From a virus (lineage: Duplodnaviria; Caudoviricetes), in the IMG/VR virus record IMGVR_UViG_3300043464_001367, positions 1-61,911 of that record: a stretch of 61,911 bases of DNA. One strand, given 5' to 3'. Made by a program: the position numbers and the translations under genes. Below the pieces are notes generated by a model that saw only the letters and a program-made list of their open reading frames with translations, searched no databases and was not told where the DNA came from. This document shows positions 180 to 29,846 of the stretch, one piece after another (positions within the stretch are counted from its first letter, which is position 1; the number at the start of each line of letters is the position of its first letter).

Positions 180-749
180 TCAATCAACACAAGCATTAAG
201 AACTGTAATTGTAAATGAATCAAGCATTTGAGGGTCTTTTAGATCTTCAATATCAATCTCTGGGATGATTGGTGCGGGAACCAGTTTGCCTCCCACATCT
301 ATCATTTCTGGCGGATTCTTTGGTGCTTTTGATTTGTAAGTGGATCTGATGGGGCTCACCACACTTACTCTTAACTCTGTTTTTGGCAACTCATCATTCT
401 GAACAATGAGCATGTTGCGAATCCTTCCTCTTGGAACTCCTTTCAACCAACTTGGTTGTGGTGTTTTTGGAAGTTCGTTTTTCTTCAAAGGGGTAAAGAG
501 GGTTGTGTGTTCAAGAATTGTCAGAATGGCACTGTTAACTTCAATCACGTTTGCTGGCTGAAGCGTTTTCACAAACAAGATGTCAGCAGCGTGCAAAACA
601 ACTTCATTCAATGTGTCATACCAATCAACAACCCTTTCAGAAAAAGAAGGGCCTCCAACACCTTGTGTGGACTCGTATGGATTCACACCAGTTTCTCTGT
701 TTACAAAATTGCCTGGTATTCTAGACCAAAATAATTGCCTGTTATTCAT
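180..749 (-). CDS. Truncated major capsid protein paralogue (isolated C-terminal/A-domain-like region)
   Basis: LFWSRIPGNFVNRETG..GPSFSERVVDWYDTLNEVVLHAADILFVKTL..TILEH aligns by eye to MCP LFWSRAPGRIVNKFTG..GPQFFGNVREWYETLMETITDAANTIHKKTL..TILEH. Confidence 0.8.
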   Translation of the reverse strand: MNNRQLFWSRIPGNFVNRETGVNPYESTQGVGGPSFSERVVDWYDTLNEVVLHAADILFVKTLQPANVIEVNSAILTILEHTTLFTPLKKNELPKTPQPSWLKGVPRGRIRNMLIVQNDELPKTELRVSVVSPIRSTYKSKAPKNPPEMIDVGGKLVPAPIIPEIDIEDLKDPQMLDSFTITVLNACVD

Positions 750-853: not shown

Positions 854-2767
854 TCAGATCAAGTTCATGTCAAGCACAGTTACGGTTGCGTAGAAGTCGG
901 CTCTCACCATCTTCTTACCGTATCTGGTCATCACACCCTTGCGAGGTGTGAAGTCTTCCTGTGCATAGATCACAGGAGTCAAGATCAGAGGCACATATGG
1001 TGCGTAGATATAACCGGACTCAAGGAAGGTGTTACCCTTCAAACCGATCAAGATCTTGTTGCTTGGGAAGTAAGGGTCTTTGTAGACAACATATCTGTTG
1101 TTCAAAGTACCGATTGCTTCTGCACCAATCGTCATGCTATCCTTCACTTGACCATCAGAGTCAACCTTGTAGGCTGGCTTGTAGGCAACCAAGTGCTCCA
1201 AGATAGTTGCCACATCAGGAGAGGTAACCATGAAGTTACCCGAACCACGAAGGGTCTTCTTGTGGATGGTGTTTGCAGCGTCAGTGATGGTTTCCATCAA
1301 AGTCTCGTACCATTCACGCACGTTTCCGAAGAACTGTGGTCCTGGTGAAAGAACGTTGTTGTGAAGAGCCTCTTGACCTGTGAACTTGTTCACGATACGA
1401 CCTGGGGCACGGCTCCAGAACAAGTTTGCTGCGCTTGCTTGAGTCAACAAGTCGTTCAAGATCTCTCTGTCAATATCAAGAGTGATCATCTCACTCAAGA
1501 TGTTGGTCAGTTCCACTTCCACGTCAATGGAGTAGAAAGCTGTAAGATCCTGTGCCATTTCTGGCGACCAACGTGCTCTCAGCTTACGAGTAGTAGCTGT
1601 CACTGCAACTGAATCAATCTTGATGTCCACTTCTGGAATCTTTGGAGACGAATCAATTGCGAAGTCTGTTTCAAACGATGGAATCGTAAGAGTGGTTCCT
1701 TCTGCACCAACCGACAACGCATCAGAGATGGCTGCCGAGCCAGTGATTCTGGTTCCTGCCGAGCCAGCAGGCTGTGGAGCCGTACCAGCGTTAGCAACTG
1801 CCACAACAAACATGATGTGGGTTCCACCGAGTGGGTTTGAAGTAAAGATACCAGTGGATGGGTTCCAATCGCCACGCTTGTTAAGCTTGCGAAGGTTCAA
1901 AACGCCTTCTCCACCTTGGAAGTTGTCACCCCAAGCTTGTGCAGAGTTTGCAGCAGAACCGAAACCAATCAAGGAGATCTGGTCAAGGTTTGTTAGATCA
2001 GCACCAACAATGTTCGTTGTAACGGTTGAAGCCGATACGAACACGAAGGTATAATCAAGTGTTCCCTGAGTAACTGCGTTTTCAACACCTGAGTCGTAAC
2101 CAACAAAACGTGCGTTGTATCCAAGGTAGTCCGAAGATGTTCTCACAACTGCGCCTGTACCTGTGGTCCAAACAGAACCAGACAGCCAGTAACCAACAGA
2201 GTCGGTCGAGCCGTTCATTGCTGTAGAACCCTTGTGAACCTTGGAGAATCCAGTACCAACAAGGTCGTACTGTCCACCTGTTGCCAACGAACCAGAACGG
2301 ATTGCGTTTCCGGTTGGAGCATTGTATACTGAGGTTCCACGCTTGTAAGTCTCAGCAGTTGCCGAGTTGGACAAGCCCAAACCTGCATCACCACCAACGT
2401 TTGATCCGTAGGTGTAGTCCAAATAGAAAAGCAGACCCGAAGGCAAGCTCATTGGCTGAACAGACACAACTTCGTTTGCGACCAAACCTGCAAACACACG
2501 ACGAACGATTGGGAATGCCACGTTCGAAAAACCAGCGATCTGACCCGAAGAGGTCAATGCTGCTCCACCTGTCGAGATGGAGTTGCTTTCCTGAATAAGC
2601 TGGGCGGTCTGGTTCTCCAGAAGGCGAGCCATTGTCTCCTTCTGCATTCCGCGCATTCCTTCCAAGAGGCCAGTTGCGGACCACTTGTTGAGAAGTCTTG
2701 GGGCATCTGCGCCCAAACTACGACGGTTTACACCTTCCGCCAATTGTGATAGAGTAAAAGTCTTCAT
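854..2767 (-). CDS. gp23: Major capsid protein, T4 gp23-like
   Basis: gp23 motifs KWSATGLLEG, LLENQ, FPIVRRVF, VSVQPM, TRKLRARWSPEMAQDL, YAPYVPL, FTPRKGVMTRYG; position after scaffold and protease. Confidence 0.95.
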   Translation of the reverse strand: MKTFTLSQLAEGVNRRSLGADAPRLLNKWSATGLLEGMRGMQKETMARLLENQTAQLIQESNSISTGGAALTSSGQIAGFSNVAFPIVRRVFAGLVANEVVSVQPMSLPSGLLFYLDYTYGSNVGGDAGLGLSNSATAETYKRGTSVYNAPTGNAIRSGSLATGGQYDLVGTGFSKVHKGSTAMNGSTDSVGYWLSGSVWTTGTGAVVRTSSDYLGYNARFVGYDSGVENAVTQGTLDYTFVFVSASTVTTNIVGADLTNLDQISLIGFGSAANSAQAWGDNFQGGEGVLNLRKLNKRGDWNPSTGIFTSNPLGGTHIMFVVAVANAGTAPQPAGSAGTRITGSAAISDALSVGAEGTTLTIPSFETDFAIDSSPKIPEVDIKIDSVAVTATTRKLRARWSPEMAQDLTAFYSIDVEVELTNILSEMITLDIDREILNDLLTQASAANLFWSRAPGRIVNKFTGQEALHNNVLSPGPQFFGNVREWYETLMETITDAANTIHKKTLRGSGNFMVTSPDVATILEHLVAYKPAYKVDSDGQVKDSMTIGAEAIGTLNNRYVVYKDPYFPSNKILIGLKGNTFLESGYIYAPYVPLILTPVIYAQEDFTPRKGVMTRYGKKMVRADFYATVTVLDMNLI

Positions 2768-7515: not shown

Positions 7516-9663
7516 TTAGTCCGCAGAATTCGAGATATTATGATTGTTTGCTTCAGAGTCTTCGCTATCTTTCAGATCAAGACCTAGCGATGCCAACTCG
7601 CTCAACTGTGGAACGTTGAACGACTCATTCAAAACCCTTGGTTTATTGTCATTTTCTTCCACTAGCAACTGATCCAAGGCATGGTCCAGAACATCTTGTT
7701 CTTTTTCATCCTCTCCTTCTTTCAAGAGGTGGATGTCAAGAGGAAGTTCGTTTCTCAAGATTTTGTTTCGGCGTTCAAAGTTTTCTAGCATTGAACGCAT
7801 CTCCTTTGACAGATAGGCATCCTTTGTGATTCCAACTTTCAGATCTCGCTTGATGGCTTCTGAAAGTGGGTTTTTCAAGAACTCTGTGTCATAAACGTCA
7901 GAAAGAGACTTGTTTCTTTTTGGATTCAGCATTCTTCTGAAGTCTGGTTGATCGGATTGCATCTCAAGTGAAGATCTTCTTCTGTCTTGATTGCGTTTAT
8001 CCATTTTCACTTGAGGGTTGTCTTTGATAGGCAACTCTCCATCTCCCAAGCTGAAGTTCAAAGCATCCGAGTTGTCTGTTTGAATAGGTGAGGAACCATC
8101 ACCAGCAGGCTGACCTGGAGTTGTTTGAGTTGGTGAATAACCTGAAGGTGCCATTCCACTTGGGGGCTGATAAGAAGTGGTATCGAACGGGTCAACCGTG
8201 TTTTCCCCGGTGTCATCAATCGTGTTGATTGAATCAAGCTCAACAGCAAACTTCTTGTCAGCTTTTAGTTGATCCTTCAACCCTGCGATCTCATCCTCAG
8301 TAAACCCAAGAATCTCTTTGTACAGCCAACTCATTGGCAGGAATCTTGTTTCGATGCTGTCAACCGAGGCAATGATGTCAATCTTTGTCTTCCAGAGATC
8401 AAGCTTCTGTTGAAGTGCAATTGTTGATGGGTTGGAAAGACGTAGTTCAAAATCAATCAGGTCTTCTCCATCAAATCCTTTTGCATAAAGGTGAAGTATC
8501 GCAAGCTTGTTGAGTTCTGCGATCACAATCTTCTGGAGGATCTGGATAGTTCGAGAAAACCTGATGTCTTCTTGAGCTAGTGTAGCTTTGGAAGAAAGCA
8601 TGTCATCATAGCCAAGATAGGCTTTTGGTACACCAAGAGCAGAAAAAAGCTGTGATTCAATGATCTGAATGTCTTCTGTGGCTGTTTGATGAGTTCCACC
8701 TGAGAGTGTGTCGATCTTTGTTCCGCTGTTAGCTCCTCTTACTGGAACAACATAGTCTTCAAGAACATCGGTTGGGTTGAATCTTTCATCCAGCCGCCCG
8801 TTGCTCTTATCAACGGCCATGTTTCCTCTGATGGTTGACATCACCGTCTGCATGTAGTTTGGAATGTCGTTAGGCGCCACAGTTCCAACATCCACATAGA
8901 ACACTCTTCTCTCAGGAGAACGAACCAAGCGGTAAACCAACATGGCATCCAACATCATCACATACTGTCGCCAGATTCGACGTGCTGCTTCAAGGATGCT
9001 AGTTCCATAAGGGTTGAATCTGTCATTGCCAAGAATTCTGAAATGCGTTACTTGCCAGTTTTCAAGTTCTTTCGTGCCCATCTTGTGCCACTTGAAACGA
9101 ACAGCATAAGGATCATTCGAGTCAAATCCCTCATCTCGTTCGACTTCGTTGACATTCATTGCCATCACATTGACAACACCAACCCCAGGAGCCACTTCGT
9201 TATAGAGGAAGAAGTCTCCATACTTGATCAGGTTTCTAATCCAGACACGAAGGTTGAAATCTACATTAAGGATGTCATAGAACAGTTCTTCCAGGGTTTC
9301 CTTCACTCTGGCATTGTCTGAGTAGATGTGAAAGTTCTTTCCGTTCTCATCACCCGAGCAAGCTTCGTCAGCTTGAACGTCAAGAGCCTTGCTGATGATC
9401 GGAGTGTATTCCATCTCAGCAAACTCCATATAACGAGTCATTCGAGACATCATATCTGCGCCACCAAGCATGTTGAATGGCGAGTTCTGTGAGGTTCCTT
9501 TTCTAAATGGCAGTGCCCCCATCCCATTCTTGTTGGCTAGGGCTGCTTGTTTGTCATAGTAGCCAGTGTCGTCATAACCTTTGATTTTACGACGGATTGA
9601 AGGGCCTGATCTGAACAGGCGCGTCAAACGTGTATAAAATGATTCGTCTCGAAATTGTGCCAT
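7516..9663 (-). CDS. gp20: Portal protein, T4 gp20-like
   Basis: PYGTSILEAARRIWRQ, MLVYRLVRSPERRVFYVDVG, EDYVVPVRG, KIDTLSGG, ALGVPKAYL, QEDIRFSRTI motifs. Confidence 0.95.
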   Translation of the reverse strand: MAQFRDESFYTRLTRLFRSGPSIRRKIKGYDDTGYYDKQAALANKNGMGALPFRKGTSQNSPFNMLGGADMMSRMTRYMEFAEMEYTPIISKALDVQADEACSGDENGKNFHIYSDNARVKETLEELFYDILNVDFNLRVWIRNLIKYGDFFLYNEVAPGVGVVNVMAMNVNEVERDEGFDSNDPYAVRFKWHKMGTKELENWQVTHFRILGNDRFNPYGTSILEAARRIWRQYVMMLDAMLVYRLVRSPERRVFYVDVGTVAPNDIPNYMQTVMSTIRGNMAVDKSNGRLDERFNPTDVLEDYVVPVRGANSGTKIDTLSGGTHQTATEDIQIIESQLFSALGVPKAYLGYDDMLSSKATLAQEDIRFSRTIQILQKIVIAELNKLAILHLYAKGFDGEDLIDFELRLSNPSTIALQQKLDLWKTKIDIIASVDSIETRFLPMSWLYKEILGFTEDEIAGLKDQLKADKKFAVELDSINTIDDTGENTVDPFDTTSYQPPSGMAPSGYSPTQTTPGQPAGDGSSPIQTDNSDALNFSLGDGELPIKDNPQVKMDKRNQDRRRSSLEMQSDQPDFRRMLNPKRNKSLSDVYDTEFLKNPLSEAIKRDLKVGITKDAYLSKEMRSMLENFERRNKILRNELPLDIHLLKEGEDEKEQDVLDHALDQLLVEENDNKPRVLNESFNVPQLSELASLGLDLKDSEDSEANNHNISNSAD

Positions 9664-21472: not shown

Positions 21473-21840
21473 CACCCAAAAAAAAATCTGTAAAAAGACA
21501 CACTTCAACACTGAGGTACAACGTAATTCTTGCTGGCGTTCAACTCACCTTGAAAGAAGCCGGTGAGAAGCTCAATGGCATCAGGCGTCAAAGCAAGGGA
21601 AGGAACTTCTCTCCTTCTGAGCGTGACATCAGGATGCAACTGCGTTTGATGAAGGAAGCTGTTGCTCTGGCCGAAGAAGAGCTTGACAAGCACATGACTG
21701 TCTATGATGAAGCCAAGTTTTTCTCCGTAACCAACCCGGTTGCGCTACCCAATGGTTCATGCCCCGAGTGTAGAGACAAAGATTGCAATGGGTGTTGTGA
21801 CAGCGGCACACCAGAAGTCAAAGTGAGCGAAGAGGCATGA
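21463..21840 (+). CDS. Hypothetical protein with Cys cluster
   Basis: CPECRDKDCNGCC. Confidence 0.6.
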   Translation: MSVTPKKKSVKRHTSTLRYNVILAGVQLTLKEAGEKLNGIRRQSKGRNFSPSERDIRMQLRLMKEAVALAEEELDKHMTVYDEAKFFSVTNPVALPNGSCPECRDKDCNGCCDSGTPEVKVSEEA

Positions 21841-22859
21841 TTCCAAGGATATCGGCCTATACCACTGTCAGGAATGCAGATTCAATGGACTACCCTTACT
21901 TGGAATCCATTGAATCTATGCTTCAGTTTGCTGATGAAGTTGTTGTTCTGGATTCCAGTGATGGGGTTGATGACACATTGATCAAACTCAACAACCTTGC
22001 AAGAACTGATAAACGTGTTCGGGTTGTTCATTCAGATCAGTTTGATTGGAAGGCTCCAAATCATGGAATCTTTGATGGTCAAACAAAAGCTCTTGCTAGA
22101 TCTCTTTGCAACAATGACTTCTTGTGGCAGTTCGATACTGATGAGATCGTTCACGAGCTTGATGCGCCCAAGATCCGTCCCTTGATTGAAAAACTCCAGT
22201 ACCTTCAGAAATGCCCGATCATGGCTTTGCCGGTTGTTGAGTATTGGGGATCAACCGGCAAAGTAAGAGCAGACATCAATCCTTGGAAGGCAAGGCTGTC
22301 ACGCAACCTCCCAGACATAACACACGGCATCCCTTCTCACCTGAGAAGAACGTTCAACGGTTTGGACTACGCATCACCAGGAACAGACACATGTGACTAC
22401 ATCTCAAAGAGCACAGGTAAAGTTCTTCCTGTCATGGGTTTCATGAGTCAAGACATAGAAGCGGTTCGTTTGATGTCTCTGAGAAATCACAAACTACTGC
22501 CATCTTACGAGAAGTGGTTCAATGAAACGGTTGATCAGATCCCAGGAGTGTTTCACTATTCCTGGTTCTCTGTTGAGAGAAAGATCAAACAATACAAGGT
22601 TTTTTGGACTTCGTTCTGGAAGGCAATGTATGGACCTGATTCATCACAAAACAAAGATCCAAACTGGAATCCGTTCTTTGAAGTTCCATGGGATCAAGTC
22701 ACTGACCAGATGATCAAAGACAAAGCAGTTGAACTTGAAACAAAAACAGGTGGTCACATCTTTCATTCAAGATGGACAGGAACCCAAACTCCACATGTCA
22801 CAATTCACAGAACCCATCCCAGAATGATCAAAGAGTGGGTTGCTGGACATGGAAAATGA
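21837..22859 (+). CDS. Glycosyltransferase family 2-like
   Basis: ADEVVVLDSS..DDT, WQFDTDE (DxD motif). Confidence 0.85.
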   Translation: MIPRISAYTTVRNADSMDYPYLESIESMLQFADEVVVLDSSDGVDDTLIKLNNLARTDKRVRVVHSDQFDWKAPNHGIFDGQTKALARSLCNNDFLWQFDTDEIVHELDAPKIRPLIEKLQYLQKCPIMALPVVEYWGSTGKVRADINPWKARLSRNLPDITHGIPSHLRRTFNGLDYASPGTDTCDYISKSTGKVLPVMGFMSQDIEAVRLMSLRNHKLLPSYEKWFNETVDQIPGVFHYSWFSVERKIKQYKVFWTSFWKAMYGPDSSQNKDPNWNPFFEVPWDQVTDQMIKDKAVELETKTGGHIFHSRWTGTQTPHVTIHRTHPRMIKEWVAGHGK

Positions 22860-23013
22860 ACTGGTTTACAAGAAAAACACTAGAAGGTTGAAAGCTGTTT
22901 GGTCGATAGAAATGGCAGACGATCTTAGTGGTTTTTACGGAATCATCCATGACAGCCCACTGACCAGGAAACTCTTAAAGGCTGGCTTGAAAATAAAAAC
23001 CAGAGCTAGGTAA
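22849..23013 (+). CDS. 54 aa mini-protein: MCP fragment plus KAGLKI module
   Basis: MENELVYKKNTRRLKAVWSIEMADDLSGFYGIIHDSPLTRKLLKAGLKIKTRAR; 14/22 identical to MCP TRKLRARWSPEMAQDLTAFYSI; not in ORF track. Confidence 0.75.
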   Translation: MENELVYKKNTRRLKAVWSIEMADDLSGFYGIIHDSPLTRKLLKAGLKIKTRAR

Positions 23014-23035
23014 CTGTCAGGACAACAAAAGAACA

Positions 23036-23386
23036 ATGTTATTTTACAACCGAACAGAACTTAGACGCGGAGACATCTTTCACGGAAAATGCACTTGTTT
23101 TGAGGTGTTTAACGAGTCCCCCTCTATTGCTGAACCAAATGCTTTGTTTTTGTTTGAAGTCCAGCTTGTTGCGTTGAATCGTGTCCAAAACATTCCATGC
23201 GGCGAATATGAACGTCGTTCGTTTTCGGATAAACTCCTAGATGTTATTCTTTTAAGATCTATCAAGCGTTGTTTGCACACCGGCTGGGTTTGCAAAGCAT
23301 TTAACAGGTCGGGTTTCTTGGGTTTTTTCTTGGTGGATGAAGACCAACTGCGTGAAATGGAAGTTATAGGTAAAGAGTTTATATGA
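23036..23386 (+). CDS. Hypothetical protein
   Basis: 116 aa, ATGA overlap with downstream GT. Confidence 0.6.
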   Translation: MLFYNRTELRRGDIFHGKCTCFEVFNESPSIAEPNALFLFEVQLVALNRVQNIPCGEYERRSFSDKLLDVILLRSIKRCLHTGWVCKAFNRSGFLGFFLVDEDQLREMEVIGKEFI

Positions 23387-24225
23387 GTGAAACACAAAAC
23401 AACTGCACTTGTGAAGCAATTAAAAAACACATGGATTTTAAATGGAACCCTTCTGAGCAAGAGCCTCACCACCCAGACTGCTCAGACCATGAAGTGACAG
23501 CAACAGATCTTCCACTGATCACAGTGGTTGTGCCATGCTACAACCATGGCAGATACCTTGAAGAGTGTGTTGAAAGTCTGTTGAATCAGACCTACAGCCT
23601 TCTTGAGATCATCATTGTCAACGATGGCTCTTCTGACAACACAGAAGAAGTAAGCAAGAGGCTCCTTGGTCGTGACAAAAGAATCAAGTACATCGGGTTT
23701 CCAAAGAACACAGGCAAGTGGAACTGTTTGAACACTGCGATTGACAACTGTAAGGGTTTGATCATCACCTGCCAGGATGCCGACGACCTAGCCACTCCAG
23801 ATCGCATAGAAAGGCAGTTTAAAGCCCTTCAAGCAACCGAGAGTGTCCATAACCTGTGCGGGTTCTATCACTGCCATTCTGAAGAGGATGTGGCAAGACA
23901 CAAGAACTCCAGAGTGGAAGGAACGATGAAGATCATTCCATCCGAGACTGTTTCCCAGATGGTTGAGTACGGATTCACAACCCCAGGAATCAACCATTAT
24001 TTTACTGCTGATTTTGAAACAGCCGGAACATCAGCCATGTTTCTCAAGGCTCTTTGGAACGTTGGGATCAGATTCAATCCCCCAGGTGTTGGACTTCGAA
24101 TTGCCAACTCCGAGGATTCAGACTTTAACGTTCGAGCAACAATGATTCTAAGAAACACCACGGTCTTGGCAGAACATCTGTACCTTTACAGAAGAGGAAC
24201 GAGCACAAACAATGAGTCGAGATGA
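23383..24225 (+). CDS. Glycosyltransferase family 2
   Basis: ITVVVPCYN, EIIIVNDGSSD, QDADD, SEDSDF. Confidence 0.92.
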   Translation: MSETQNNCTCEAIKKHMDFKWNPSEQEPHHPDCSDHEVTATDLPLITVVVPCYNHGRYLEECVESLLNQTYSLLEIIIVNDGSSDNTEEVSKRLLGRDKRIKYIGFPKNTGKWNCLNTAIDNCKGLIITCQDADDLATPDRIERQFKALQATESVHNLCGFYHCHSEEDVARHKNSRVEGTMKIIPSETVSQMVEYGFTTPGINHYFTADFETAGTSAMFLKALWNVGIRFNPPGVGLRIANSEDSDFNVRATMILRNTTVLAEHLYLYRRGTSTNNESR

Positions 24226-24517
24226 TGGTTTAAAGACTGGCCTTAACATCTTCTGGTTTTTCTCTGGCGCACATCAAGTAAAACCACTGGGAAAATGGAA
24301 ATATTGGCATGGCCATGGGCCAGCGATGAAAATCGAGATAAGTCTTGATGAAACAGACATCTCCCCGGAAGATGCATATAGAATTACAAACGAAATCCTT
24401 TTGGATTTCAATATCGATTTCCAAGTAAGATGGAAAGAGAGATTGGAGCTCTTTAAAAGGAATAAAAAACTACGATCAAGGATAACACCACCTTGTTTAG
24501 AATGCGAAGAGGAGTAA
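24212..24517 (+). CDS. Hypothetical protein
   Basis: 101 aa inserted ORF overlapping GT stop. Confidence 0.55.
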   Translation: MSRDDGLKTGLNIFWFFSGAHQVKPLGKWKYWHGHGPAMKIEISLDETDISPEDAYRITNEILLDFNIDFQVRWKERLELFKRNKKLRSRITPPCLECEEE

Positions 24518-24522
24518 GAAAC

Positions 24523-24738
24523 ATGGGATTAAGTGCTGGTGCTATCTGTGCAATGAGTGATGAAGAATTTGATGAATGGTCAACGTATTATGAGAAACCG
24601 CCAATAGATGGGTGGAAGTTGGTAAAGGAAGAAATCCACAATTCTGTCGAACTGAACGCTGTTGTTAAAGTATTGGTTGAACGAGATGTGCGAATGGGTA
24701 CATTGCGCACTTCCTTAGAAGTCATTTCAAAGAAATAA
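24523..24738 (+). CDS. Hypothetical protein
   Basis: GAGGAG RBS before ATG 24523. Confidence 0.6.
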   Translation: MGLSAGAICAMSDEEFDEWSTYYEKPPIDGWKLVKEEIHNSVELNAVVKVLVERDVRMGTLRTSLEVISKK

Positions 24739-24743
24739 AGACC

Positions 24744-24938
24744 ATGCCATCAATAAAAATTGAAAAGAAATCACTGGGAAGCAACTACAGAGAAAACGCT
24801 CTTGAACCTTCAAGTTGGAATCCAACAAGAAACATTTTCTACATTGATGTTTCAAACTTATCTCCCAAAGAAACCGAGATGTTCATGAATGGGGTTCAAT
24901 CCACTTTGAAAGCAATGAAAGAATTGGCAAACACATGA
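24744..24938 (+). CDS. 64 aa mini-protein containing a portal clip-region fragment
   Basis: NPTRNIFYIDVSNLSPKETEMFMNGVQSTLK vs portal SPERRVFYVDVGTVAPNDIPNYMQTVMSTIR (11/31 identical, ungapped). Confidence 0.7.
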   Translation: MPSIKIEKKSLGSNYRENALEPSSWNPTRNIFYIDVSNLSPKETEMFMNGVQSTLKAMKELANT

Positions 24939-25633
24939 AAATAAGCTTGTTAACACCAACCAGAGGCAGACCTCATGCAATGCAGCGACTCTGGGAGTCT
25001 GCATGGAACACAGCGGATAACAAAACGGATCTGGAGATCGTGTTCTACATGGATCACGACGATGTTCATTCTCTTGAGCAGTTTGAGAAGATGGACTCTC
25101 CACAACATCTTGGCATCTGTGGCCAGCGCATTGTTCTTTCAGAGATGTGGAATGAGTGTTCCAAGGTTGCAACAGGAGAGATCTTGATGCACTGCGGCGA
25201 TGACATCATCTTTAGATCCCAGGGCTGGGACACGCTTGTCAGAAAACACATTGGTTCATTTCCAGACAAGATAGCATTTGTCCACGGCATGGATGGAATT
25301 CAAAACGAAAAACTAGGAACACATGGCTTCTTGCACCGTAATTGGGTTAATACTGTTGGTTATTTTGTCCCTCCTTATTTTAGTTGCGACTATAACGATA
25401 CATGGCTGACTGAGGTTTCTTCCATGATAGGAAGAAGAATCTATGAGCCAAGAATCTACACAGAGCACATGCACTGGGCTGTTGGAAAACAACCTAGAGA
25501 TCAAACTTACTCAGACACAATGGCAAGAGGTCACAGAGACAACGTAACTGCGATGTATGAGTCAATGCGTCCAAAACGCAAAGAAGATGCCGAGAAACTC
25601 AGAGAGTTCATTAAAAGCGGTAAATGGACATGA
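24935..25633 (+). CDS. Glycosyltransferase family 2-like
   Basis: ISLLTPTRGR, YMDHDD, CGDD, DYNDTW. Confidence 0.85.
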   Translation: MKISLLTPTRGRPHAMQRLWESAWNTADNKTDLEIVFYMDHDDVHSLEQFEKMDSPQHLGICGQRIVLSEMWNECSKVATGEILMHCGDDIIFRSQGWDTLVRKHIGSFPDKIAFVHGMDGIQNEKLGTHGFLHRNWVNTVGYFVPPYFSCDYNDTWLTEVSSMIGRRIYEPRIYTEHMHWAVGKQPRDQTYSDTMARGHRDNVTAMYESMRPKRKEDAEKLREFIKSGKWT

Positions 25634-25935
25634 ACTATTATGGAAAATATTGCAGAGGCAATCCGTCGGGATATTTGATGTATTTGTCACTGTCTCAAAA
25701 CAACGACCCAACCAAATGTGGATTTTTTGTTTGCATTGACAACGATGATCACAATGTTTCAAAAGACTTCTACGAACTTCGAAAAGTAATAAAAATTCTT
25801 AATCGAAAGGGTTTGGATGTTAAGGTGTTTATCAATCCTAGATTTGCAGACCAGGCTTCCATGGAAGCCTGGGTTCAAAAACAGTTACCAGGACATGCAA
25901 TCTTTCTTAAATACCAAGAAGAAATCGAACAATGA
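25624..25935 (+). CDS. Hypothetical protein
   Basis: 103 aa inserted ORF with ATGA overlap; contains LNRKGLDVKV. Confidence 0.55.
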   Translation: MDMNYYGKYCRGNPSGYLMYLSLSQNNDPTKCGFFVCIDNDDHNVSKDFYELRKVIKILNRKGLDVKVFINPRFADQASMEAWVQKQLPGHAIFLKYQEEIEQ

Positions 25936-26996
25936 ATAAACTACCAGTATTCCAACCAACCAGCCAACTAGAACCCGCAATAAAAGAAAGTGTGAGCTAT
26001 GAGCAGCTTACTCAAGCCTATTCAACCTGGGGTGGTAAGCTGCTTCAACACACAGACGTTTTGCATGGGATTCAGGTGCAAAAAGAGTTTCGGCCCATCA
26101 CTGTGCAGCTTGCCCCAACAGAAGCTTGTGATTCAAACTGTCCATTCTGTTCTGTGTCTTGGAGATCTGTTGACAAAAAGATTCCATTCTCAGTGATTGA
26201 GAAAGGCTTGAGAGAGTTCAGGGCTCTTGGTGCTAAGTCCATTGAACTAACAGGCGGTGGCAATCCATTGATCTACAGAGATGGGACCAAGAACATCAAC
26301 GACGTGATTGAGTTGGCTCATGACCTTGGTTATGAGATAGGCGTTATCACAAACACTGAGAAGCTGTCTCGGCATATCAAACCAGAGAATGCCGACAAGC
26401 TATCTTGGATTCGAATCTCTCTGATCAAGCTGGATGAAGGAAAGAATCCTGAAGACTATGATTTTACTGGGTTTCCCATTGACAAGATGGGGTTCTCCTA
26501 CATCATCTATGAAGGAACCACTGTTCAGTCCATTGAGAAGATTGCCAAGCTTGTGGAGCTAAACCCTGAGATCAAGTTCGTTAGAATTGCATCCGATTGC
26601 TTGACCGAAGAGTCACTAACCATCAAGAATGACTGGGGTGACATTGTGAAAACACTGGATGTTCACCAGAAGTTCTTCATCAAAGAAATCAATGACAGTT
26701 TCCATGCCTATGAAGGTGGATGCTGGGTTGGGATGATCAGACCATACTGGGTTTGGAATGGTGTCTACATGTGTACTTCTCATGTGCTGAAACACAGAAA
26801 CTACCATGACACCTGGAAGTTGTGTGATGGCGACAAGATCAAAGAAACATGGGATGCCATGAATGCTCGCTTCAAAGCAGGTCAGAATCCATATGACATC
26901 AAGATCAAAGAGGAGTGCTGGCACTGTTATTACTATAACAACAACCGGCTTCTTGCTGATGTTATCAACGAACTGCCTGACAAAAACTTTGCATAA
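25932..26996 (+). CDS. Radical SAM protein with SPASM/twitch-like C-terminus
   Basis: CDSNCPFC (CxxxCxxC), TGGGNP, C-terminal Cys motifs CW..YMC..CWHCYY. Confidence 0.92.
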   Translation: MNKLPVFQPTSQLEPAIKESVSYEQLTQAYSTWGGKLLQHTDVLHGIQVQKEFRPITVQLAPTEACDSNCPFCSVSWRSVDKKIPFSVIEKGLREFRALGAKSIELTGGGNPLIYRDGTKNINDVIELAHDLGYEIGVITNTEKLSRHIKPENADKLSWIRISLIKLDEGKNPEDYDFTGFPIDKMGFSYIIYEGTTVQSIEKIAKLVELNPEIKFVRIASDCLTEESLTIKNDWGDIVKTLDVHQKFFIKEINDSFHAYEGGCWVGMIRPYWVWNGVYMCTSHVLKHRNYHDTWKLCDGDKIKETWDAMNARFKAGQNPYDIKIKEECWHCYYYNNNRLLADVINELPDKNFA

Positions 26997-27020
26997 CAAT
27001 TGTTTAGGAAACAAAGAAAG

Positions 27021-27167
27021 ATGCAACGAAACCAACTTCTGTTGATGATCAGGAAATCAGGTTTAAAAGTTGATTATTCAATCAAACAAGTGATAATACA
27101 AATATCAGAAGATATTGACCGAATGATTTTGGATGATTTGATAAAACTGGGGGCTCGTCGTGAGTAA
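27021..27167 (+). CDS. 48 aa mini-protein: KSGLKV module plus MCP fragment
   Basis: MQRNQLLLMIRKSGLKVDYSIKQVIIQISEDIDRMILDDLIKLGARRE; ISEDIDRMILDDL vs MCP ITLDIDREILNDL 9/13 identical. Confidence 0.7.
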   Translation: MQRNQLLLMIRKSGLKVDYSIKQVIIQISEDIDRMILDDLIKLGARRE

Positions 27168-27333
27168 GCCCAGTTTGACGATCAATGCGTTTTTCACTGA
27201 GTTTCTTGAGCAGTCAAGTCCAATCTTTATTCCTTATGTGCCTTTGCAAGTAACGCCATCGTTTGTTGTTAACAACCCTTTGCATGGGAAACTAAGAAAA
27301 GCAGGATTGAAGATTCGCGTCAAGCATCTTTGA
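27160..27333 (+). CDS. 57 aa mini-protein: MCP fragment plus KAGLKI module
   Basis: (V/M)SKPSLTINAFFTEFLEQSSPIFIPYVPLQVTPSFVVNNPLHGKLRKAGLKIRVKHL vs MCP FLESGYIYAPYVPLILTP. Confidence 0.7.
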   Translation: MSKPSLTINAFFTEFLEQSSPIFIPYVPLQVTPSFVVNNPLHGKLRKAGLKIRVKHL

Positions 27334-27345
27334 ACTAGCGTCTTA

Positions 27346-27588
27346 GTGCCTTTTCGCAAACAAACCATGGAGGTTGTTATGAGCATAAGCATGACACAGG
27401 CTCGAATCTACAGAGCGCAAATGTACAATCAAGGAAAGCTTCTGGCAAAGATCAAAAAATCGGGTTTGAAAGTTGAATCTTTGGCAGAAAGAATGATAAA
27501 ACAAATATCAAAAGATTTTGATCAGATGGCTTCGGTTAATTTGGTTGGATTTAGTAAACTGGTGCCTCTTTGTAAACAAACGAGTTAG
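27346..27588 (+). CDS. Mini-protein paralogous to 27021-27167 (KSGLKV module plus diverged MCP helix)
   Basis: LLAKIKKSGLKVESLAERMIKQISKDFDQM vs LLLMIRKSGLKVDYSIKQVIIQISEDIDRM; true start may be downstream after GGAGG. Confidence 0.65.
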   Translation: MPFRKQTMEVVMSISMTQARIYRAQMYNQGKLLAKIKKSGLKVESLAERMIKQISKDFDQMASVNLVGFSKLVPLCKQTS

Positions 27589-28197
27589 ATGATGTCAAAC
27601 ACAGATCCATTAACATACAATGCCGATTACTACAAAACCTCAAACTATGCTGACTACATGGAGCGTTCAGACCGCTACAAAAAGACAGCATATGAGATTT
27701 CCAACCTGCTGAAGCAGTTAAGTCTTGCAACCAACGACTCTTGTTTGCTTGATTACGGCTGTGCAATTGGCTTTCTGATGGAGGGCTTCAAGGAAGTTGG
27801 ACACAAGAACGTCATAGGCTTTGAAGTCTCAGAATGGGCTGCTGGTGAAGCTCTGAACCGTGGCAACGCAGTCACTACCAACCTTGAAAAGCTAGCAGAC
27901 AGAAACATTGATGTCATGGTTTCTTTGGATGTGTTTGAACACATGACTGACGAAGAAGTTTTTAGTGCCATCGACAACACAAACCCAAGAGCTCTTGTTG
28001 TGAGAATCCCAGTTTCAACGGATGGTGGGAAAACTTTTCACCTTGCTGTTTCAAGAGCAGACAAAACCCACATCAACTGTAAAACTTCGGATCAGTGGAT
28101 TGAGTTCTTTGCTTCTATTGGGTACAGAACCTTCTTGAGACTCAATCTGTTCACTGTCTATGACACACCAGGAGTGCTGTGTTTGTTGATACTATGA
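27589..28197 (+). CDS. Class I SAM-dependent methyltransferase
   Basis: LLDYGCAIG motif I, GFEVS, DVFEHM. Confidence 0.9.
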   Translation: MMSNTDPLTYNADYYKTSNYADYMERSDRYKKTAYEISNLLKQLSLATNDSCLLDYGCAIGFLMEGFKEVGHKNVIGFEVSEWAAGEALNRGNAVTTNLEKLADRNIDVMVSLDVFEHMTDEEVFSAIDNTNPRALVVRIPVSTDGGKTFHLAVSRADKTHINCKTSDQWIEFFASIGYRTFLRLNLFTVYDTPGVLCLLIL

Positions 28198-28637
28198 CAA
28201 AAGAAAATACAATGCAGTTTGAAACTGATTTAAAAGAAAGATTCTTTAAAGCGCAACCCGACGGCACTGTGCATGAGATAACAGAAAAAGAGTACAGGGG
28301 TGGTTTTAGCAGACTTTATCCTTACGCACACTTTCACGATCCCGGTGCAACTGCCAAGGATGTTCTGATAAAACTGGGAAAAGGCTTGGAAACTGGCTCT
28401 GTTTCAATCGAAGAGGCCGTTGGTTTCCTTAACGCTTCGAAGCTTGTGTTTCTTAACACACACACCAACATGCTTTCGCAGTGGTTTTACGAGGAACCAG
28501 ACTCGTATAGTCGAGCAATTTTCCACAACGCCACTTCTTGTTCTTGTTTGTGTGGACCTCTGAGTGATCCTTGCAATGAACAAGGGCCTGGTTCCAAAGT
28601 AAGCTTTTCGTTTAAGAAAGAAGAAACACTGAGATGA
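28179..28637 (+). CDS. Hypothetical protein
   Basis: ORF ends KKEETLR in an ATGA overlap with ugd stub 1; start possibly 28194. Confidence 0.6.
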   Translation: MFVDTMTKENTMQFETDLKERFFKAQPDGTVHEITEKEYRGGFSRLYPYAHFHDPGATAKDVLIKLGKGLETGSVSIEEAVGFLNASKLVFLNTHTNMLSQWFYEEPDSYSRAIFHNATSCSCLCGPLSDPCNEQGPGSKVSFSFKKEETLR

Positions 28638-28705
28638 AGATTGGATTTATGGGCCTTGGGAAATTGGGTTGATTATTTATTCGCATGAAGTTCACGGCTC
28701 CTAAA
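28615..28705 (+). repeat. 91-bp direct repeat, copy 1
   Basis: 77/91 nt identical to 28991-29081 by manual alignment. Confidence 0.95.
28634..28672 (+). pseudogene. ugd 5' stub 1 (MKIGFMGLGKLG-stop)
   Basis: Matches the N-terminus MRIGMMGLGKLG of the 29848 gene. Confidence 0.85.
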
Positions 28706-28719
28706 TATGAGAATGTCAA

Positions 28720-29013
28720 ATGGAAACGATTCATCGCACAGATTGTTTTGAAATTCAAGAAGGTCCAGCAGTTTGTCTGATTCATCCTGATGGCACTATT
28801 CAGGTGCAACGTCTTTTGATGAAAATAACTCGTGACGAAAATGGCATTATCATAGATGTTGAGAAGAGTGGCATTGTAACTTTGCCAGAACTCTATGTGA
28901 TTGGAGAACAGATCAACGAAGATGAAACATGGACTGGTCCAGTAATCTATAAGCCACACGATTATACACCATACAAACTTGTTCAAGTAGAGAAAGAAGA
29001 AACATCAAGATGA
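28720..29013 (+). CDS. Hypothetical protein between the direct repeats
   Basis: 97 aa, ends EKEETSR in an ATGA overlap with ugd stub 2. Confidence 0.6.
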   Translation: METIHRTDCFEIQEGPAVCLIHPDGTIQVQRLLMKITRDENGIIIDVEKSGIVTLPELYVIGEQINEDETWTGPVIYKPHDYTPYKLVQVEKEETSR

Positions 29014-29081
29014 AAATTGGATTCATGGGTTTGGGTAAGTTGGGTTGATTACTTATTTGCATGAAGTTCACAGCACCTAAA
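28991..29081 (+). repeat. 91-bp direct repeat, copy 2
   Basis: See copy 1; offset 376 bp. Confidence 0.95.
29010..29048 (+). pseudogene. ugd 5' stub 2 (MKIGFMGLGKLG-stop)
   Basis: Same peptide as stub 1, followed by TACTTA (29050-29055) and the endonuclease ATG. Confidence 0.85.
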
Positions 29082-29846
29082 GGCAAAAAGCTCTGCGGCA
29101 TATACCAAATCACTAACTTGATTGATGGTAAATGTTACTACGGCCAATCTTATGATATACGCAGAAGGTTTCGTGACCACTACCAACATCTCATGAAAGG
29201 CAATCATGACAACCAGTATCTTCAACATGCTTTCAATAAACATGGCTCTGATGCCTTTGAGATGAGAGTAATTGAACTGCTTCCAACTAACGAACTAAAC
29301 GTTGCCGAACAACTACTGCTTGATGAACATGTTGGCAAAAAACACTGTTACAACATCATGCGTAGTGTTGACCAAACCTTTCGAGGACAAAAACACTCGC
29401 CAGAAGCCCTTGAGAAGATGAGTAAGACATGGTTTGGTAAAGGTGAAAATCATACCAATTTTGGCAAACATCTATCGGGGGATATTCGTCAAAAAATTAG
29501 CGAAGCTCATAAAGGTAAAACTCTCTCTGAAGAGACAAAGAAAAAACTTAGTGCGCTTAATTCCGGCGAGAGCCATCCGTTTTATGGCAAATACGGCCCC
29601 GCACATCCTGCGTATGGTCACAAGTGGTCAGAGGAAACTCGTGCCAAAATGACCATTCCAATGCAAAAACATCAAACCAAAGTCGTACAATACGATAGAG
29701 GTTCCGGCAATATACTGGCTGAGTTTGAAAGCTTGAAAACTGCGGAAAATGCAACAGGCGTTGCGTATCAAGCTATTTCTCGATGTTGTCAAGGGATAAG
29801 GCCATCTGCTGGAGGCTTTATCTGGAAATATAAAGGAACAAAATAA
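29061..29846 (+). mobile_element. Free-standing GIY-YIG homing endonuclease with NUMOD3 repeats and a NUMOD1/IENR1-like C-terminus
   Basis: GIYQITN..YYGQS..RRF..H; HSPEALEKMS, LSEETKKKLS repeats; VVQYD..EFES..AISRCC..AGGFIWKY. Confidence 0.92.

What the first reader, a model, noticed from the sequence alone, without database searches (positions are those of the whole stretch)
22849..27588. Family of mini-genes encoding fragments of the phage's own capsid and portal proteins (candidate decoy or assembly-interference system)
Seen: at least five intact, closely packed 48-80 aa ORFs are inserted among the glycosylation genes, 15-25 kb from the head module, and each carries a short copy of a conserved structural segment. 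22849-23013 matches MCP TRKLRARWSPEMAQDLTAFYSI (14/22 identical). 27021-27167 matches MCP ITLDIDREILNDL (9/13), and 27346-27588 is its paralogue. 27160-27333 matches MCP FLE..PYVPL..TP. 24744-24938 matches the portal RRVFYVDVG region. None is directly preceded by TANTTA, so they may be expressed before the real structural proteins. Established: bacterial defences sense capsid and portal proteins (CapRel and Lit sense MCP, Avs4 senses portal), and satellites interfere with capsid assembly. Inference: these are decoy epitopes that occupy host sensors, or dominant-negative peptides against co-infecting related phages.
Basis: partly seen in the sequence, partly recalled or inferred. Interest (0 to 1): 0.92.

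Follow-up and report, generated by a model that had tools for sequence, protein, structure and literature searches.

The report
Capsid-derived mini-gene family in phage
A lake-water T4-like phage carries small genes copied from pieces of its own capsid and portal genes; they look like real, fast-evolving genes sitting in insertion hot spots, but nothing yet shows that they work as decoys.

Summary
Five packed ORFs (m1 22849-23013, m2 24744-24938, m3 27021-27167, m4 27160-27333, m5 27346-27588) exist. m1, m3 and m4 resemble the phage's own gp23-type capsid protein (MCP, 854-2767, minus strand), m2 resembles its gp20-type portal (7516-9663, minus strand), and m5 is a paralogue of m3.

Of 37 large window proteins, only MCP and portal have stray fragment copies.

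The core is a small-protein family of 47-87 aa, with 17 hits (one a likely chance match) among 1.84 billion representative proteins. Its members are collinear with MCP residues about 386-445 and carry a family-specific RKAGLK turn. They keep MCP-invariant positions (profile-profile E 4e-7). m1 and m4 are truncated or chimeric derivatives, and m2 is a young portal fragment confined to this lineage.

The minis lie in insertion hot spots. Radical-SAM and methyltransferase genes abut in 35 related loci, but 10 close-relative loci carry variable inserts there, 4 of them with GIY-YIG homing endonucleases.

Open frames across genomes with saturated synonymous divergence, coding-type codon usage and pN below pS argue for real genes under weak constraint.

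The decoy or assembly-interference function is untested. A role for endonucleases in creating or moving the fragments is inferred, not shown.

The parts
22849..23013 (+). m1: a 54-aa ORF made of an MCP-like segment (MCP 393-416), a linker, the RKAGLK-type turn motif and a basic tail. A TTG at 22840 is an alternative start.
   Evidence: z 11.1 vs MCP. Pfam Gp23 E 0.0033. The tail aligns to the family motif, E 6e-4. An orthologue with the same build lies at L095 2467-2619: pN 0.40 against a saturated pS of 0.79. P0002 is 91% identical with two in-frame indels.
24744..24938 (+). m2: a 64-aa ORF whose residues 26-56 resemble portal 249-279. It has no turn motif.
   Evidence: z 9.1 vs portal. Pfam Portal_T4 E 0.0014. 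tblastn hits portal genes in 618 phage records, at most 47% identity. Only one near-identical cluster exists in the 5.8-billion protein set. No relative's glycosylation locus has it.
27021..27167 (+). m3: a core family member, built as helix, K-S-G-L-K turn, then a helix like MCP 415-441. A TTG at 27000 is an alternative start.
   Evidence: Family profile vs MCP profile: E 1.2e-5 and E 4.1e-7. AlphaFold2 model: helix 2-19, loop 20-25, helix 26-54, pLDDT 87. In runs X2 and X4, positions 27076-27099 carry 14 substitutions; by my reading of the listed changes they alter 9 codons, all nonsynonymous.
27160..27333 (+). m4: a 57-aa ORF with an MCP C-terminal strand segment (MCP 581-602), then the turn motif, then a stop.
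   Evidence: z 5.9 vs MCP. The tail aligns to the family motif, E 3.9e-5. Longer versions in relatives match MCP strongly: L095 E 7e-11, L100 E 6e-17, L112 E 3e-8.
27346..27588 (+). m5: a paralogue of m3 with turn motif and helix. The MCP-like motif is largely lost. The start is uncertain: GTG at 27346 or ATG at 27367; protein P0010 begins with m5's residue 12, which points to an ATG at 27379.
   Evidence: Repeat D1, 71% over 105 nt. Family profile E 5e-25. No direct MCP similarity, z 0.4.
854..2767 (-). The parent gene: the gp23-type major capsid protein, 637 aa.
   Evidence: Pfam Gp23 E 6.6e-77. The copied segments lie at 1526-1591, 1448-1486 and 986-1000.
7516..9663 (-). The parent gene: the gp20-type portal, 715 aa.
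   Evidence: Pfam Portal_T4 E 5.8e-62. The nine-residue portal motif quoted in the finding lies at 8884-8910, inside the stretch (portal 249-279) that m2 resembles.
25932..26996 (+). The radical-SAM gene, the left flank of the hot spot that holds m3-m5.
   Evidence: Pfam Radical_SAM. It directly abuts the methyltransferase gene in 7 of 14 viral loci and 28 of 37 metagenome loci.
27589..28197 (+). The methyltransferase gene, the right flank of that hot spot.
   Evidence: Pfam Methyltransf_23 and Methyltransf_11. Synteny.
29061..29846 (+). A GIY-YIG homing endonuclease gene in front of ugd, 1.5 kb downstream of m5.
   Evidence: PHROG 314 homing endonuclease E 2.3e-43. TANTTA lies 11 nt upstream.
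28615..29081 (+). Two 91-nt repeats, each with a short ugd 5' stub and the first endonuclease codons. This is direct in-window evidence that endonuclease insertion leaves gene stubs.
   Evidence: Repeats D1 (85% identity) and D2 (three copies of the ugd 5' end).
180..749 (-). o180: a 189-aa ORF downstream of the MCP that resembles MCP 448-564. It is a larger MCP-derived paralogue, separate from the minis.
   Evidence: tblastn E 8e-12. Intact relatives of 217-266 aa lie downstream of the MCP in L001 and L003.

Best explanation
The minis are a lineage-restricted, birth-and-death family of real small genes made from partial copies of the phage's own structural genes.

The founding type (m3, m5 and relatives) is a copy of MCP residues about 386-445, a strand plus the long helix that follows it. 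It now folds as a helix-turn-helix hairpin with a family-specific turn motif (hydrophobic-R-K-A-G-L-K-hydrophobic; in one sub-lineage P-F-R-W-T-C-L-K). It still carries the MCP-invariant face of that helix.

Duplication, truncation and recombination produced the other forms:
- m1 is the MCP strand part plus the turn.
- m4 is an MCP C-terminal strand plus the turn.
- m3 and m4 together correspond to one longer ORF in a relative.
- m2 is a separate, young portal fragment.

They sit at junctions between conserved glycosylation genes. At these junctions DNA is repeatedly inserted, replaced and lost, and GIY-YIG homing endonucleases also land there.

Shown: homology to MCP and portal, the family, the hot spots, coding character and weak purifying selection.

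Inferred:
- Selfish-endonuclease-driven repair created or moved the fragments.
- The proteins, where retained, act as mimics of the MCP element they copy, competing for whatever binds it (a scaffold or neighbouring subunit, a chaperonin, or a sensor).
For: Homology:
- Shuffle z-scores, Pfam and PHROGs hits and family-vs-MCP hhalign (E 1.2e-5, E 4.1e-7).
- Two distant family members align collinearly with MCP: P0018 to MCP 386-445 (34% over 61 aa, E 2e-6) and P0021 to MCP 392-443 (40%, E 6e-5).
- The best-kept helix positions of the family (D40 and I43 of m3, kept in at least 90% of 20 sequences) fall on MCP D433 (invariant in 14 of 14 MCPs) and I436 (at least 90%).

Family size and motif:
- 17 proteins at E <= 0.001 among 1.84 billion; 15 are 47-87 aa, one is a longer family ORF (P0008, 162 aa) and one is a probable chance repeat match.
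- L112 has eight tandem ORFs of 49-86 aa, each with the motif or a looser variant of it.
- The motif's codons differ synonymously between copies (Arg as AGA, CGT or CGA; Leu as TTG, CTC or CTG), so conservation is at the protein level.

Coding character:
- All five minis score 0.11-0.20 per codon in frame. Real 55-codon gene chunks score 0.255 +/- 0.091 and shifted frames -0.38 +/- 0.16, with none of the shifted frames above 0.
- An m3-like sequence follows the radical-SAM gene in the window and in 9 of the 10 relative loci with an insert there (L116 ends before that point); it is an open ORF where I listed ORFs or read the frames.
- pN/pS is 0.44-0.69 for the minis and 0.07-0.28 for neighbouring enzymes.
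- The m1 orthologue pair has pN 0.40 against a saturated pS of 0.79.
- No frameshift in m1, m3, m4 or m5 was seen in four lake-water runs.

Hot spots:
- Radical-SAM and methyltransferase genes abut in 7 of 14 loci and 28 of 37 loci.
- 7 of 14 and 3 of 37 loci have variable inserts there.
- Endonucleases sit in that junction in 4 loci: L098 (record G001), L100, L116 and L147.

Selfish elements around the parent genes:
- A GIY-YIG gene lies right after the MCP in 9 of 80 loci.
- The portal match is interrupted in 12 of 80 loci. In 3 of 3 inspected, the cause is an intein-like in-frame insert.
- Endonuclease insertion leaves gene stubs of ugd in the window and of radical-SAM in L116 and L147.
Against: - No endonuclease touches the minis in the window.
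- In L147 a radical-SAM stub lies between the endonuclease and the m3-like ORF, so that endonuclease arrived after the mini. The causal link is therefore only an inference.
- Three tests of where the turn motif came from were all negative: endonuclease C-terminus (E 0.37), MCP N-terminus (E 0.27), ugd N-terminus (E 0.36).
- Signs of decay or dispensability:
  - L094/L113 has no insert.
  - G001 and L100 hold dead motif remnants and overlapping frames.
  - The window's m3 and m4 are in different frames where L100 has one ORF.
  - m2, m1 and m4 have only near-identical relatives in 5.8 billion proteins.
- The pN/pS values come from short, protein-guided alignments at near-saturated pS, so they lean low.
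- Independent capture from conserved MCP genes could mimic constraint.
- No expression data exist.
Confidence: 0.55

Rival explanations
1. Pure recombination debris. The ORFs are untranslated or functionless leftovers of partial gene duplications. They look conserved only because each piece was copied fairly recently from genes that are themselves conserved.
For: - They lie in hot spots with presence/absence variation.
- Dead remnants and overlapping frames occur in G001 and L100.
- m3 and m4 are split relative to the single ORF of L100.
- Stubs of ugd and radical-SAM show that such debris is made here.
- The fragments are about as close to every MCP of the clade as to each other.
- m2 has no diverged relative.
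Against: - DNA identity to the resident genes is only 52-65%, with third positions at 32-67%, so no capture is recent.
- No MCP or portal among 80 loci is more than about 65% identical to any fragment.
- Despite saturated pS, frames stay open and coding scores are positive for 5 of 5 minis.
- The turn motif is kept through synonymous change.
- Family members from more distant sources keep the MCP-invariant helix motif.
Confidence: 0.25
2. The minis occupy host sensors that recognise conserved capsid or portal elements (CapRel-, Lit- or Avs-type) and so blunt abortive infection.
For: - The copied pieces are the most conserved MCP and portal segments. m1 and m2 hit MCP and portal genes in 1343 and 618 phage records.
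- MCP-invariant residues are retained.
- A hypervariable patch lies in m3 between near-identical populations and in its L096/L097 counterpart. Such patches are seen in conflict genes.
Against: - There is no test of any kind here, and the host and its defences are unknown.
- Short-patch replacement also occurs in the methyltransferase gene, so it is not special to the minis.
- From recalled knowledge, known sensors are activated by binding such peptides, so a copy could trigger rather than block them.
- Two literature searches listed no precedent (listings and abstract starts only).
Confidence: 0.1
3. Assembly modulators or dominant-negative peptides. By copying an MCP strand/helix element or a portal element, they bind assembly partners of the phage itself or of a co-infecting relative.
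For: - The family is collinear with one MCP strand-plus-helix element and keeps its invariant face.
- m4-type members keep the conserved C-terminal strand residues.
- The phage encodes its own GroEL-type chaperonin.
Against: - There is no binding evidence.
- The peptides would also act on the phage's own, equally conserved proteins.
- The family is absent from some close relatives.
Confidence: 0.1
4. RiPP-like precursor or substrate peptides for the neighbouring radical-SAM, methyltransferase and glycosyltransferase enzymes, with a conserved recognition motif and a variable core.
For: - Small tandem ORFs lie next to a radical-SAM gene.
- A conserved motif sits beside a hypervariable patch.
- The model is a helix-loop-helix shape.
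Against: - The radical-SAM and methyltransferase pair exists without any small ORF in 35 loci, so the enzymes do not depend on the peptides.
- The most common motif form has no Ser, Thr or Cys acceptor.
- The similarity to MCP would be left unexplained.
Confidence: 0.03

Closest known systems
Gene stubs and split genes left by free-standing homing endonucleases in T4-type phages (intronless homing, transposition-like insertions such as mobE in Aeh1 nrdA; review PMC2988022, passages read)
   Same: GIY-YIG endonuclease genes sit in the same junctions in relatives. Short duplicated gene ends flank them here: ugd in the window and radical-SAM in L116 and L147. The parent genes MCP and portal are themselves visited by endonucleases and inteins in this clade.
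   Different: The MCP and portal pieces lie 15-25 kb from their parent genes and do not flank an endonuclease in the window. They form a diverged multi-copy family with its own motif, and they stay open and codon-adapted, unlike the radical-SAM stubs.
Hyperplastic regions of T4-like genomes, with small variable ORFs shuffled as cassettes (PeSL model; PMC2839356 and PMC4122927, seen as search listing and abstract starts only)
   Same: Small lineage-specific ORFs are inserted, replaced or lost at fixed junctions between conserved genes.
   Different: No promoter/stem-loop cassette boundary was found. The shared element is a peptide motif kept through synonymous change, and the ORFs derive from structural genes.
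The gp24 vertex protein, the known gp23 paralogue just downstream of gene 23 in T4 (recalled, not checked here)
   Same: It is an MCP-derived paralogue retained in the genome. o180 and its relatives occupy that position.
   Different: The minis are 48-80 aa pieces, not a whole fold. They match the MCP and not the o180-type paralogues, and they lie elsewhere in the genome.
Capsid- and portal-sensing defences (CapRel: PMC9712102 and PMC11578894, seen in a search listing only; Lit/Gol and Avs recalled) and satellite capsid-remodelling proteins (recalled)
   Same: They provide a context in which copies of conserved capsid or portal elements could matter.
   Different: No phage-encoded fragment decoy was listed in my searches, and nothing here tests the link.

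Membership tests
Gp23 major capsid protein (Pfam PF07068) | Whole-protein score above the curated cut-off (24.4 bits), covering the fold | tested here: not met
   m1 scores 17.3 bits over 31 residues, and m3, m4 and m5 have no hit. They are fragments of the family, not members.
Portal_T4 (Pfam PF07230) | Score above the curated cut-off (22.9 bits) | tested here: not met
   m2 scores 17.9 bits over 32 residues.
Homing-endonuclease-generated gene stub | The fragment duplicates the end of the gene that directly flanks an endonuclease gene | tested here: not met
   This holds for the ugd stubs and the radical-SAM stubs. The minis copy MCP and portal 15-25 kb away, and no endonuclease adjoins them in the window.
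Homing-endonuclease-generated gene stub | An endonuclease occupies the same site in relatives | tested here: met
   A GIY-YIG gene follows the radical-SAM gene directly in L098 (G001), L100, L116 and L147, which is 4 of 10 relative loci with an insert at that junction.
Diversity-generating retroelement (template and variable repeat) | Differences between copies confined to adenines of the template | tested here: not met
   In the 27076-27099 patch only 6 of 14 changes start from A. The L096/L097 patch shows changes at all bases. I did not search for a reverse transcriptase.
RiPP precursor peptides of a radical-SAM cluster | The precursor gene co-occurs with the maturase across relatives | tested here: not met
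   35 loci have radical-SAM directly followed by the methyltransferase, with no small ORF between them.
m3-like mini-protein family (defined here) | 47-87 aa; helix, RKAGLK-type turn, then a helix aligning to MCP 415-441 | tested here: met
   m3 and m5 score E 8e-18 and E 5e-25 against the family profile. The model is a helix-turn-helix. m1 and m4 share only the turn region.
Anti-defence decoy or sponge proteins | Binds and neutralises a defence sensor or signal | not testable with these tools

The most novel reading that the evidence does not exclude
A phage clade has turned pieces of its own capsid and portal proteins into a fast-evolving set of mimic mini-proteins. These proteins present the most conserved structural-protein elements on a small hairpin. 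They would act in conflict, either by occupying host sensors of capsid or portal proteins, or by poisoning or tuning head assembly of competitors or of the phage itself.
Probability: 0.2. Interest if true: 0.85.

Novelty: new variant of a known kind. Interest (0 to 1): 0.55.

Why it matters
If the minis are only by-products, they still give a clear, datable example of how selfish-element-rich phage genomes scatter pieces of essential genes and turn them into new small ORFs.

If the retained MCP-like face is functional, this would be a natural case of a virus recycling its own capsid element as a mimic. The idea is directly testable with cloned 50-80 aa proteins. It is relevant to how bacterial sensors that read conserved capsid and portal features might be countered, and to how head assembly can be tuned.

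Tried and rejected
Origin of the turn motif. Three candidate sources were compared by hhalign and none was significant:
- endonuclease C-termini (Prob 0.2%, E 0.37);
- the MCP profile, where the best placement was MCP 16-43 (E 0.27);
- ugd N-termini (E 0.36).

A DNA or RNA hairpin at the motif was considered and dropped. My reading of the 24 copies found pairing in only a few, and the codons vary synonymously.

Introns or endonucleases inside the MCP gene: the long MCP matches in L001 and L003 turned out to be downstream paralogues. I first read portal query overlaps in L011 and L063 as duplications. They are intein-like in-frame inserts.

Recent gene conversion from the resident MCP or portal was rejected on DNA identity. 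A closer foreign donor was not found in 50,697 phage records or in 80 clade loci.

Other searches:
- Megablast of the region against phage records: no match.
- ESM Atlas look-up of m5: no usable feature hit, and only generic helical structure matches to a low-confidence model.
- Complex prediction with MCP plus m3: 'no answer'. This is not evidence either way.
- The look-up of sequencing runs: no RNA holder listed. This is not evidence on expression.
- P0014 (610 aa, 11 matches to the motif only) looks like a repeat protein matching by chance. I did not test it further.
- A looser motif pattern also hits a few unrelated places in the window. Only the stricter pattern is confined to the hot spots.

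Supplements of papers were not opened. For the papers, I saw passages of PMC10448857 and PMC2988022, and only listings and abstract starts for the others.

Full report
**What the window is.** The 61.9-kb window is the whole record held for this genome. It comes from a distant T4-type phage.
- The MCP (854-2767, minus strand, 637 aa) and the portal (7516-9663, minus strand, 715 aa) match Pfam Gp23 and Portal_T4.
- A prohead protease and a GroEL-type gene lie nearby.
- The closest cultured relatives share 42-47% MCP identity: Flavobacterium phage immuto and Microcystis phage Mel-JY01.
- Near-identical DNA occurs in lake-water metagenome runs. Seven rows hold at least half of the sampled words, and one of them may be the source.

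**The observation.** The five ORFs exist and are packed with overlapping or abutting stops and starts.
- Against 300 shuffles, m1 vs MCP gives z 11.1, m2 vs portal z 9.1, m4 vs MCP z 5.9 and m3 vs MCP z 4.4. m5 shows nothing directly, and four neighbouring small ORFs show nothing.
- Pfam and PHROGs independently place m1 on the capsid profile and m2 on the portal profile, both below the curated cut-offs.
- m5 is a paralogue of m3.
- With 37 large window proteins as queries, the only stray matches in the window were MCP to o180, MCP to m1 and portal to m2, plus one ordinary paralogue pair. So fragments exist only for MCP and portal.
- m1 and m2 hit MCP and portal genes of 1343 and 618 phage records, never above 47% identity. 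The copied pieces are the universally conserved ones, and no closer donor is on record.

**A shared motif and a wider family.** m1 and m4 end, and m3 and m5 begin, with a motif of the form hydrophobic-R/K-K-A/S-G-L-K-hydrophobic.
- Across copies its codons differ synonymously (Arg as AGA, CGT or CGA; Leu as TTG, CTC or CTG). Conservation is therefore at the protein level.
- In 1.42 Mb of fetched sequence read in six frames, the strict pattern occurs only at junctions of the glycosylation cluster (25 matches, some from overlapping loci). A looser pattern has a few chance hits elsewhere.
- One sub-lineage (L095-L097) has a collinear variant, P-F-R-W/F/M-T-C/N-L-K.
- L112 carries eight tandem ORFs of 49-86 aa, each with the motif or a looser variant of it.
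- AlphaFold2 on a 14-sequence alignment folds m3 as helix, loop (the motif), helix, with pLDDT 87.
- A profile of these m3-like proteins found 17 proteins at E <= 0.001 among 1.84 billion representatives. Fifteen are 47-87 aa. P0008 (162 aa) is a longer family ORF. The remaining hit is a 610-aa repeat protein that matches the motif alone 11 times and is probably a chance match.

**Relation of the family to the MCP.**
- The family profile aligns to MCP 417-443 (E 1.2e-5, 14 sequences). With 20 sequences it aligns to MCP 415-441 (E 4.1e-7, Prob 93%).
- The family's best-kept helix positions coincide with MCP-invariant D433 and near-invariant I436.
- Two distant members are collinear with a longer stretch. 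P0018 aligns to MCP 386-445 and P0021 to MCP 392-443, including the strand before the helix.
- This explains why the motif seems to sit 'on either side' of capsid fragments. The ancestral mini was strand part, then turn, then helix. m1 keeps strand part plus turn, and m3 and m5 keep turn plus helix.
- m4-type members are a second build: MCP about 549-602, the motif, then MCP 604-633. This is complete in L100 and L112 and truncated after the motif in the window.
- In L100 the m3-like and m4-like parts are one 310-codon open frame that ends at the natural MCP C-terminus. In the window they are two ORFs in different frames.
- Other relatives hold minis with MCP 372-408 and 63-95 pieces plus the motif.
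- The minis match the MCP, not the o180-type paralogues.

**Where they sit.**
- The radical-SAM and methyltransferase genes that flank m3-m5 abut within about 0-35 nt in 7 of 14 viral loci and 28 of 37 metagenome loci. Some loci are the same contig held in both collections. Six metagenome loci were uninformative.
- Ten loci of the closer clade have variable inserts there, from 0.3 to 2 kb: L093, L095-L100, L112, L116 and L147.
- Four of them carry a GIY-YIG endonuclease right after the radical-SAM gene: L098 (record G001), L100, L116 and L147. In L116 and L147 a duplicated radical-SAM 3' stub follows the endonuclease.
- The m1 junction is likewise variable. L095 and L097 have m1-type minis, G001, L100 and L099 have motif remnants, and I saw no motif in L094. 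L094 (the same contig as L113) has no insert at the radical-SAM junction.
- Only the window has the portal fragment. In two runs the DNA just upstream of m2 is replaced, with the break 14 nt before its start.
- In the window itself, two 91-nt repeats each hold a ugd stub plus the first endonuclease codons, beside the intact endonuclease and ugd genes.
- The parent genes attract selfish elements in this clade. A GIY-YIG gene lies directly downstream of the MCP in 9 of 80 loci. The portal match is interrupted in 12 of 80 loci, and in 3 of 3 inspected the cause is an intein-like in-frame insert at about residues 85 and 220-234.
- G001 has a further portal-fragment ORF (portal 253-343) near its head genes.
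- Enrichment of endonuclease genes near capsid genes is reported for other phages (PMC10448857, passages read).

**Are they genes?** Evidence for:
- DNA identity to the resident parent genes is 52-65%, with third positions at 32-67%. No clade MCP or portal is more than about 65% identical to any fragment. The copies are therefore old.
- An m3-like sequence follows the radical-SAM gene in the window and in 9 of the 10 relative loci with an insert there; L116 ends before that point. It is an open ORF where I listed ORFs or read the frames.
- All five minis have coding-type codon usage in frame (0.11-0.20 per codon). Real genes score 0.255 +/- 0.091, and shifted frames -0.38 +/- 0.16 with none above 0.
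- m1 has an orthologue of the same build in L095, with pN 0.40 against a saturated pS of 0.79. The neighbouring methyltransferase has pN 0.30.
- pN/pS is 0.44-0.69 for the minis and 0.07-0.28 for the enzymes.
- P0002, 91% identical to m1, differs by two in-frame indels.
- Four lake-water runs show no frameshift in m1, m3, m4 or m5.

Evidence against:
- The alignments are short and protein-guided.
- Dead remnants and overlapping frames exist.
- The family is missing from one close relative.
- m1, m2 and m4 have only near-identical relatives in 5.8 billion proteins.

**Hypervariable patches.**
- L096 and L097 are about 99% identical over 711 columns, except for a roughly 70-nt indel-free patch in the helix part of their m3-like gene.
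- In runs X2 and X4 the window's m3 carries 14 substitutions within 27076-27099. By my reading of the listed changes they alter 9 codons, all nonsynonymous, and they make the segment resemble m5.
- The changes are not adenine-specific, so this is not a diversity-generating retroelement.
- A similar patch occurs in the methyltransferase gene in X2. Short-patch replacement is therefore a general habit of these genomes and not a mark of the minis alone.

**Reading.**
- Shown: an old MCP-derived mini-protein family and its truncated or chimeric derivatives, and one young portal fragment. They sit in insertion hot spots, have coding character and are under weak constraint.
- Inferred: repair after selfish-endonuclease cuts made or moved the pieces. 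The order of elements in L147 shows that at least that endonuclease came later than the mini.
- Inferred: the retained MCP-like face makes the proteins mimics of that MCP element.
- The decoy and dominant-negative ideas remain open. Nothing here tests them, and the one complex prediction gave no answer (see Tried and rejected).
- The timing argument fails because no gene between 21.8 and 28.2 kb has TANTTA upstream.

**Novelty.** Two literature searches (listings and abstract starts only) listed no phage-encoded capsid-fragment decoy or MCP-derived mini-protein family. The nearest described phenomena are:
- endonuclease-linked stubs and split genes (PMC2988022, passages);
- cassette shuffling in hyperplastic regions (PMC2839356 and PMC4122927, listing only).

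I rate this as a new variant of a known kind, of moderate interest. It would be of high interest if mimicry is demonstrated.

Noticed in passing
window 180-749 (-); L001 11982-12776; L003 12027-12827 and 12860-13513: Intact ORFs of 189-266 aa just downstream of the MCP resemble MCP residues about 443-637 (E 1e-12 to 1e-31). By position they could be a much-reduced counterpart of the T4 gp24 vertex paralogue (recalled), or 3' partial duplications of the MCP gene.
   Followed up: partly
L007 447-4829; L011 1110-3746; L063 1854-4892: Portal genes of relatives are single ORFs of 878-1460 aa with intein-like in-frame inserts (starting with Cys, ending His-Asn before Ser/Thr). The inserts lie at about portal residues 85 and 220-234. 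Nine further loci show interrupted portal matches that I did not inspect.
   Followed up: partly
G001 reverse strand, about positions 20651-24109 of the joined L091+L092 stretch: The ugd gene of the closest large relative matches in three pieces separated by about 1 kb each. This suggests introns, inteins or endonuclease inserts.
   Followed up: no
window 28615-29081: Two 91-nt repeats (85% identical) each hold a short ugd 5' stub, a TA(T/C)TTA box and the first endonuclease codons. The first copy is followed by an unrelated 97-aa ORF (28720-29013) instead of an endonuclease, so it is a remnant of an earlier endonuclease copy.
   Followed up: partly
L001 788-1207 (-), record G001: A separate ORF with a portal-like segment (portal 253-343, E 2e-9) lies near the head genes. 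It starts at nearly the same portal position as m2's fragment.
   Followed up: partly
window 27953-27982: In run X2 the methyltransferase gene carries a dense patch of substitutions, with small indels that sum to +3 nt. This is short-patch replacement inside an ordinary enzyme gene.
   Followed up: no
window, + strand, whole length: TANTTA occurs only 17 times on the + strand, against roughly 100 expected from a crude base-composition estimate. None lies between 21.8 and 28.6 kb, and one sits 11 nt before the endonuclease start.
   Followed up: partly
window 12699-14411 (+): A phage-encoded GroEL-type chaperonin (PHROG 5725, E 1.7e-144) lies in the window. It is of interest because T4-type capsid proteins need chaperonin help (recalled).
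   Followed up: no
L021 5473-5583: A stray MCP fragment (MCP 83-123, 54% identity, E 3e-4) lies 2.8 kb from the MCP gene of another relative. L095 and L097 have minis with the same MCP region.
   Followed up: no
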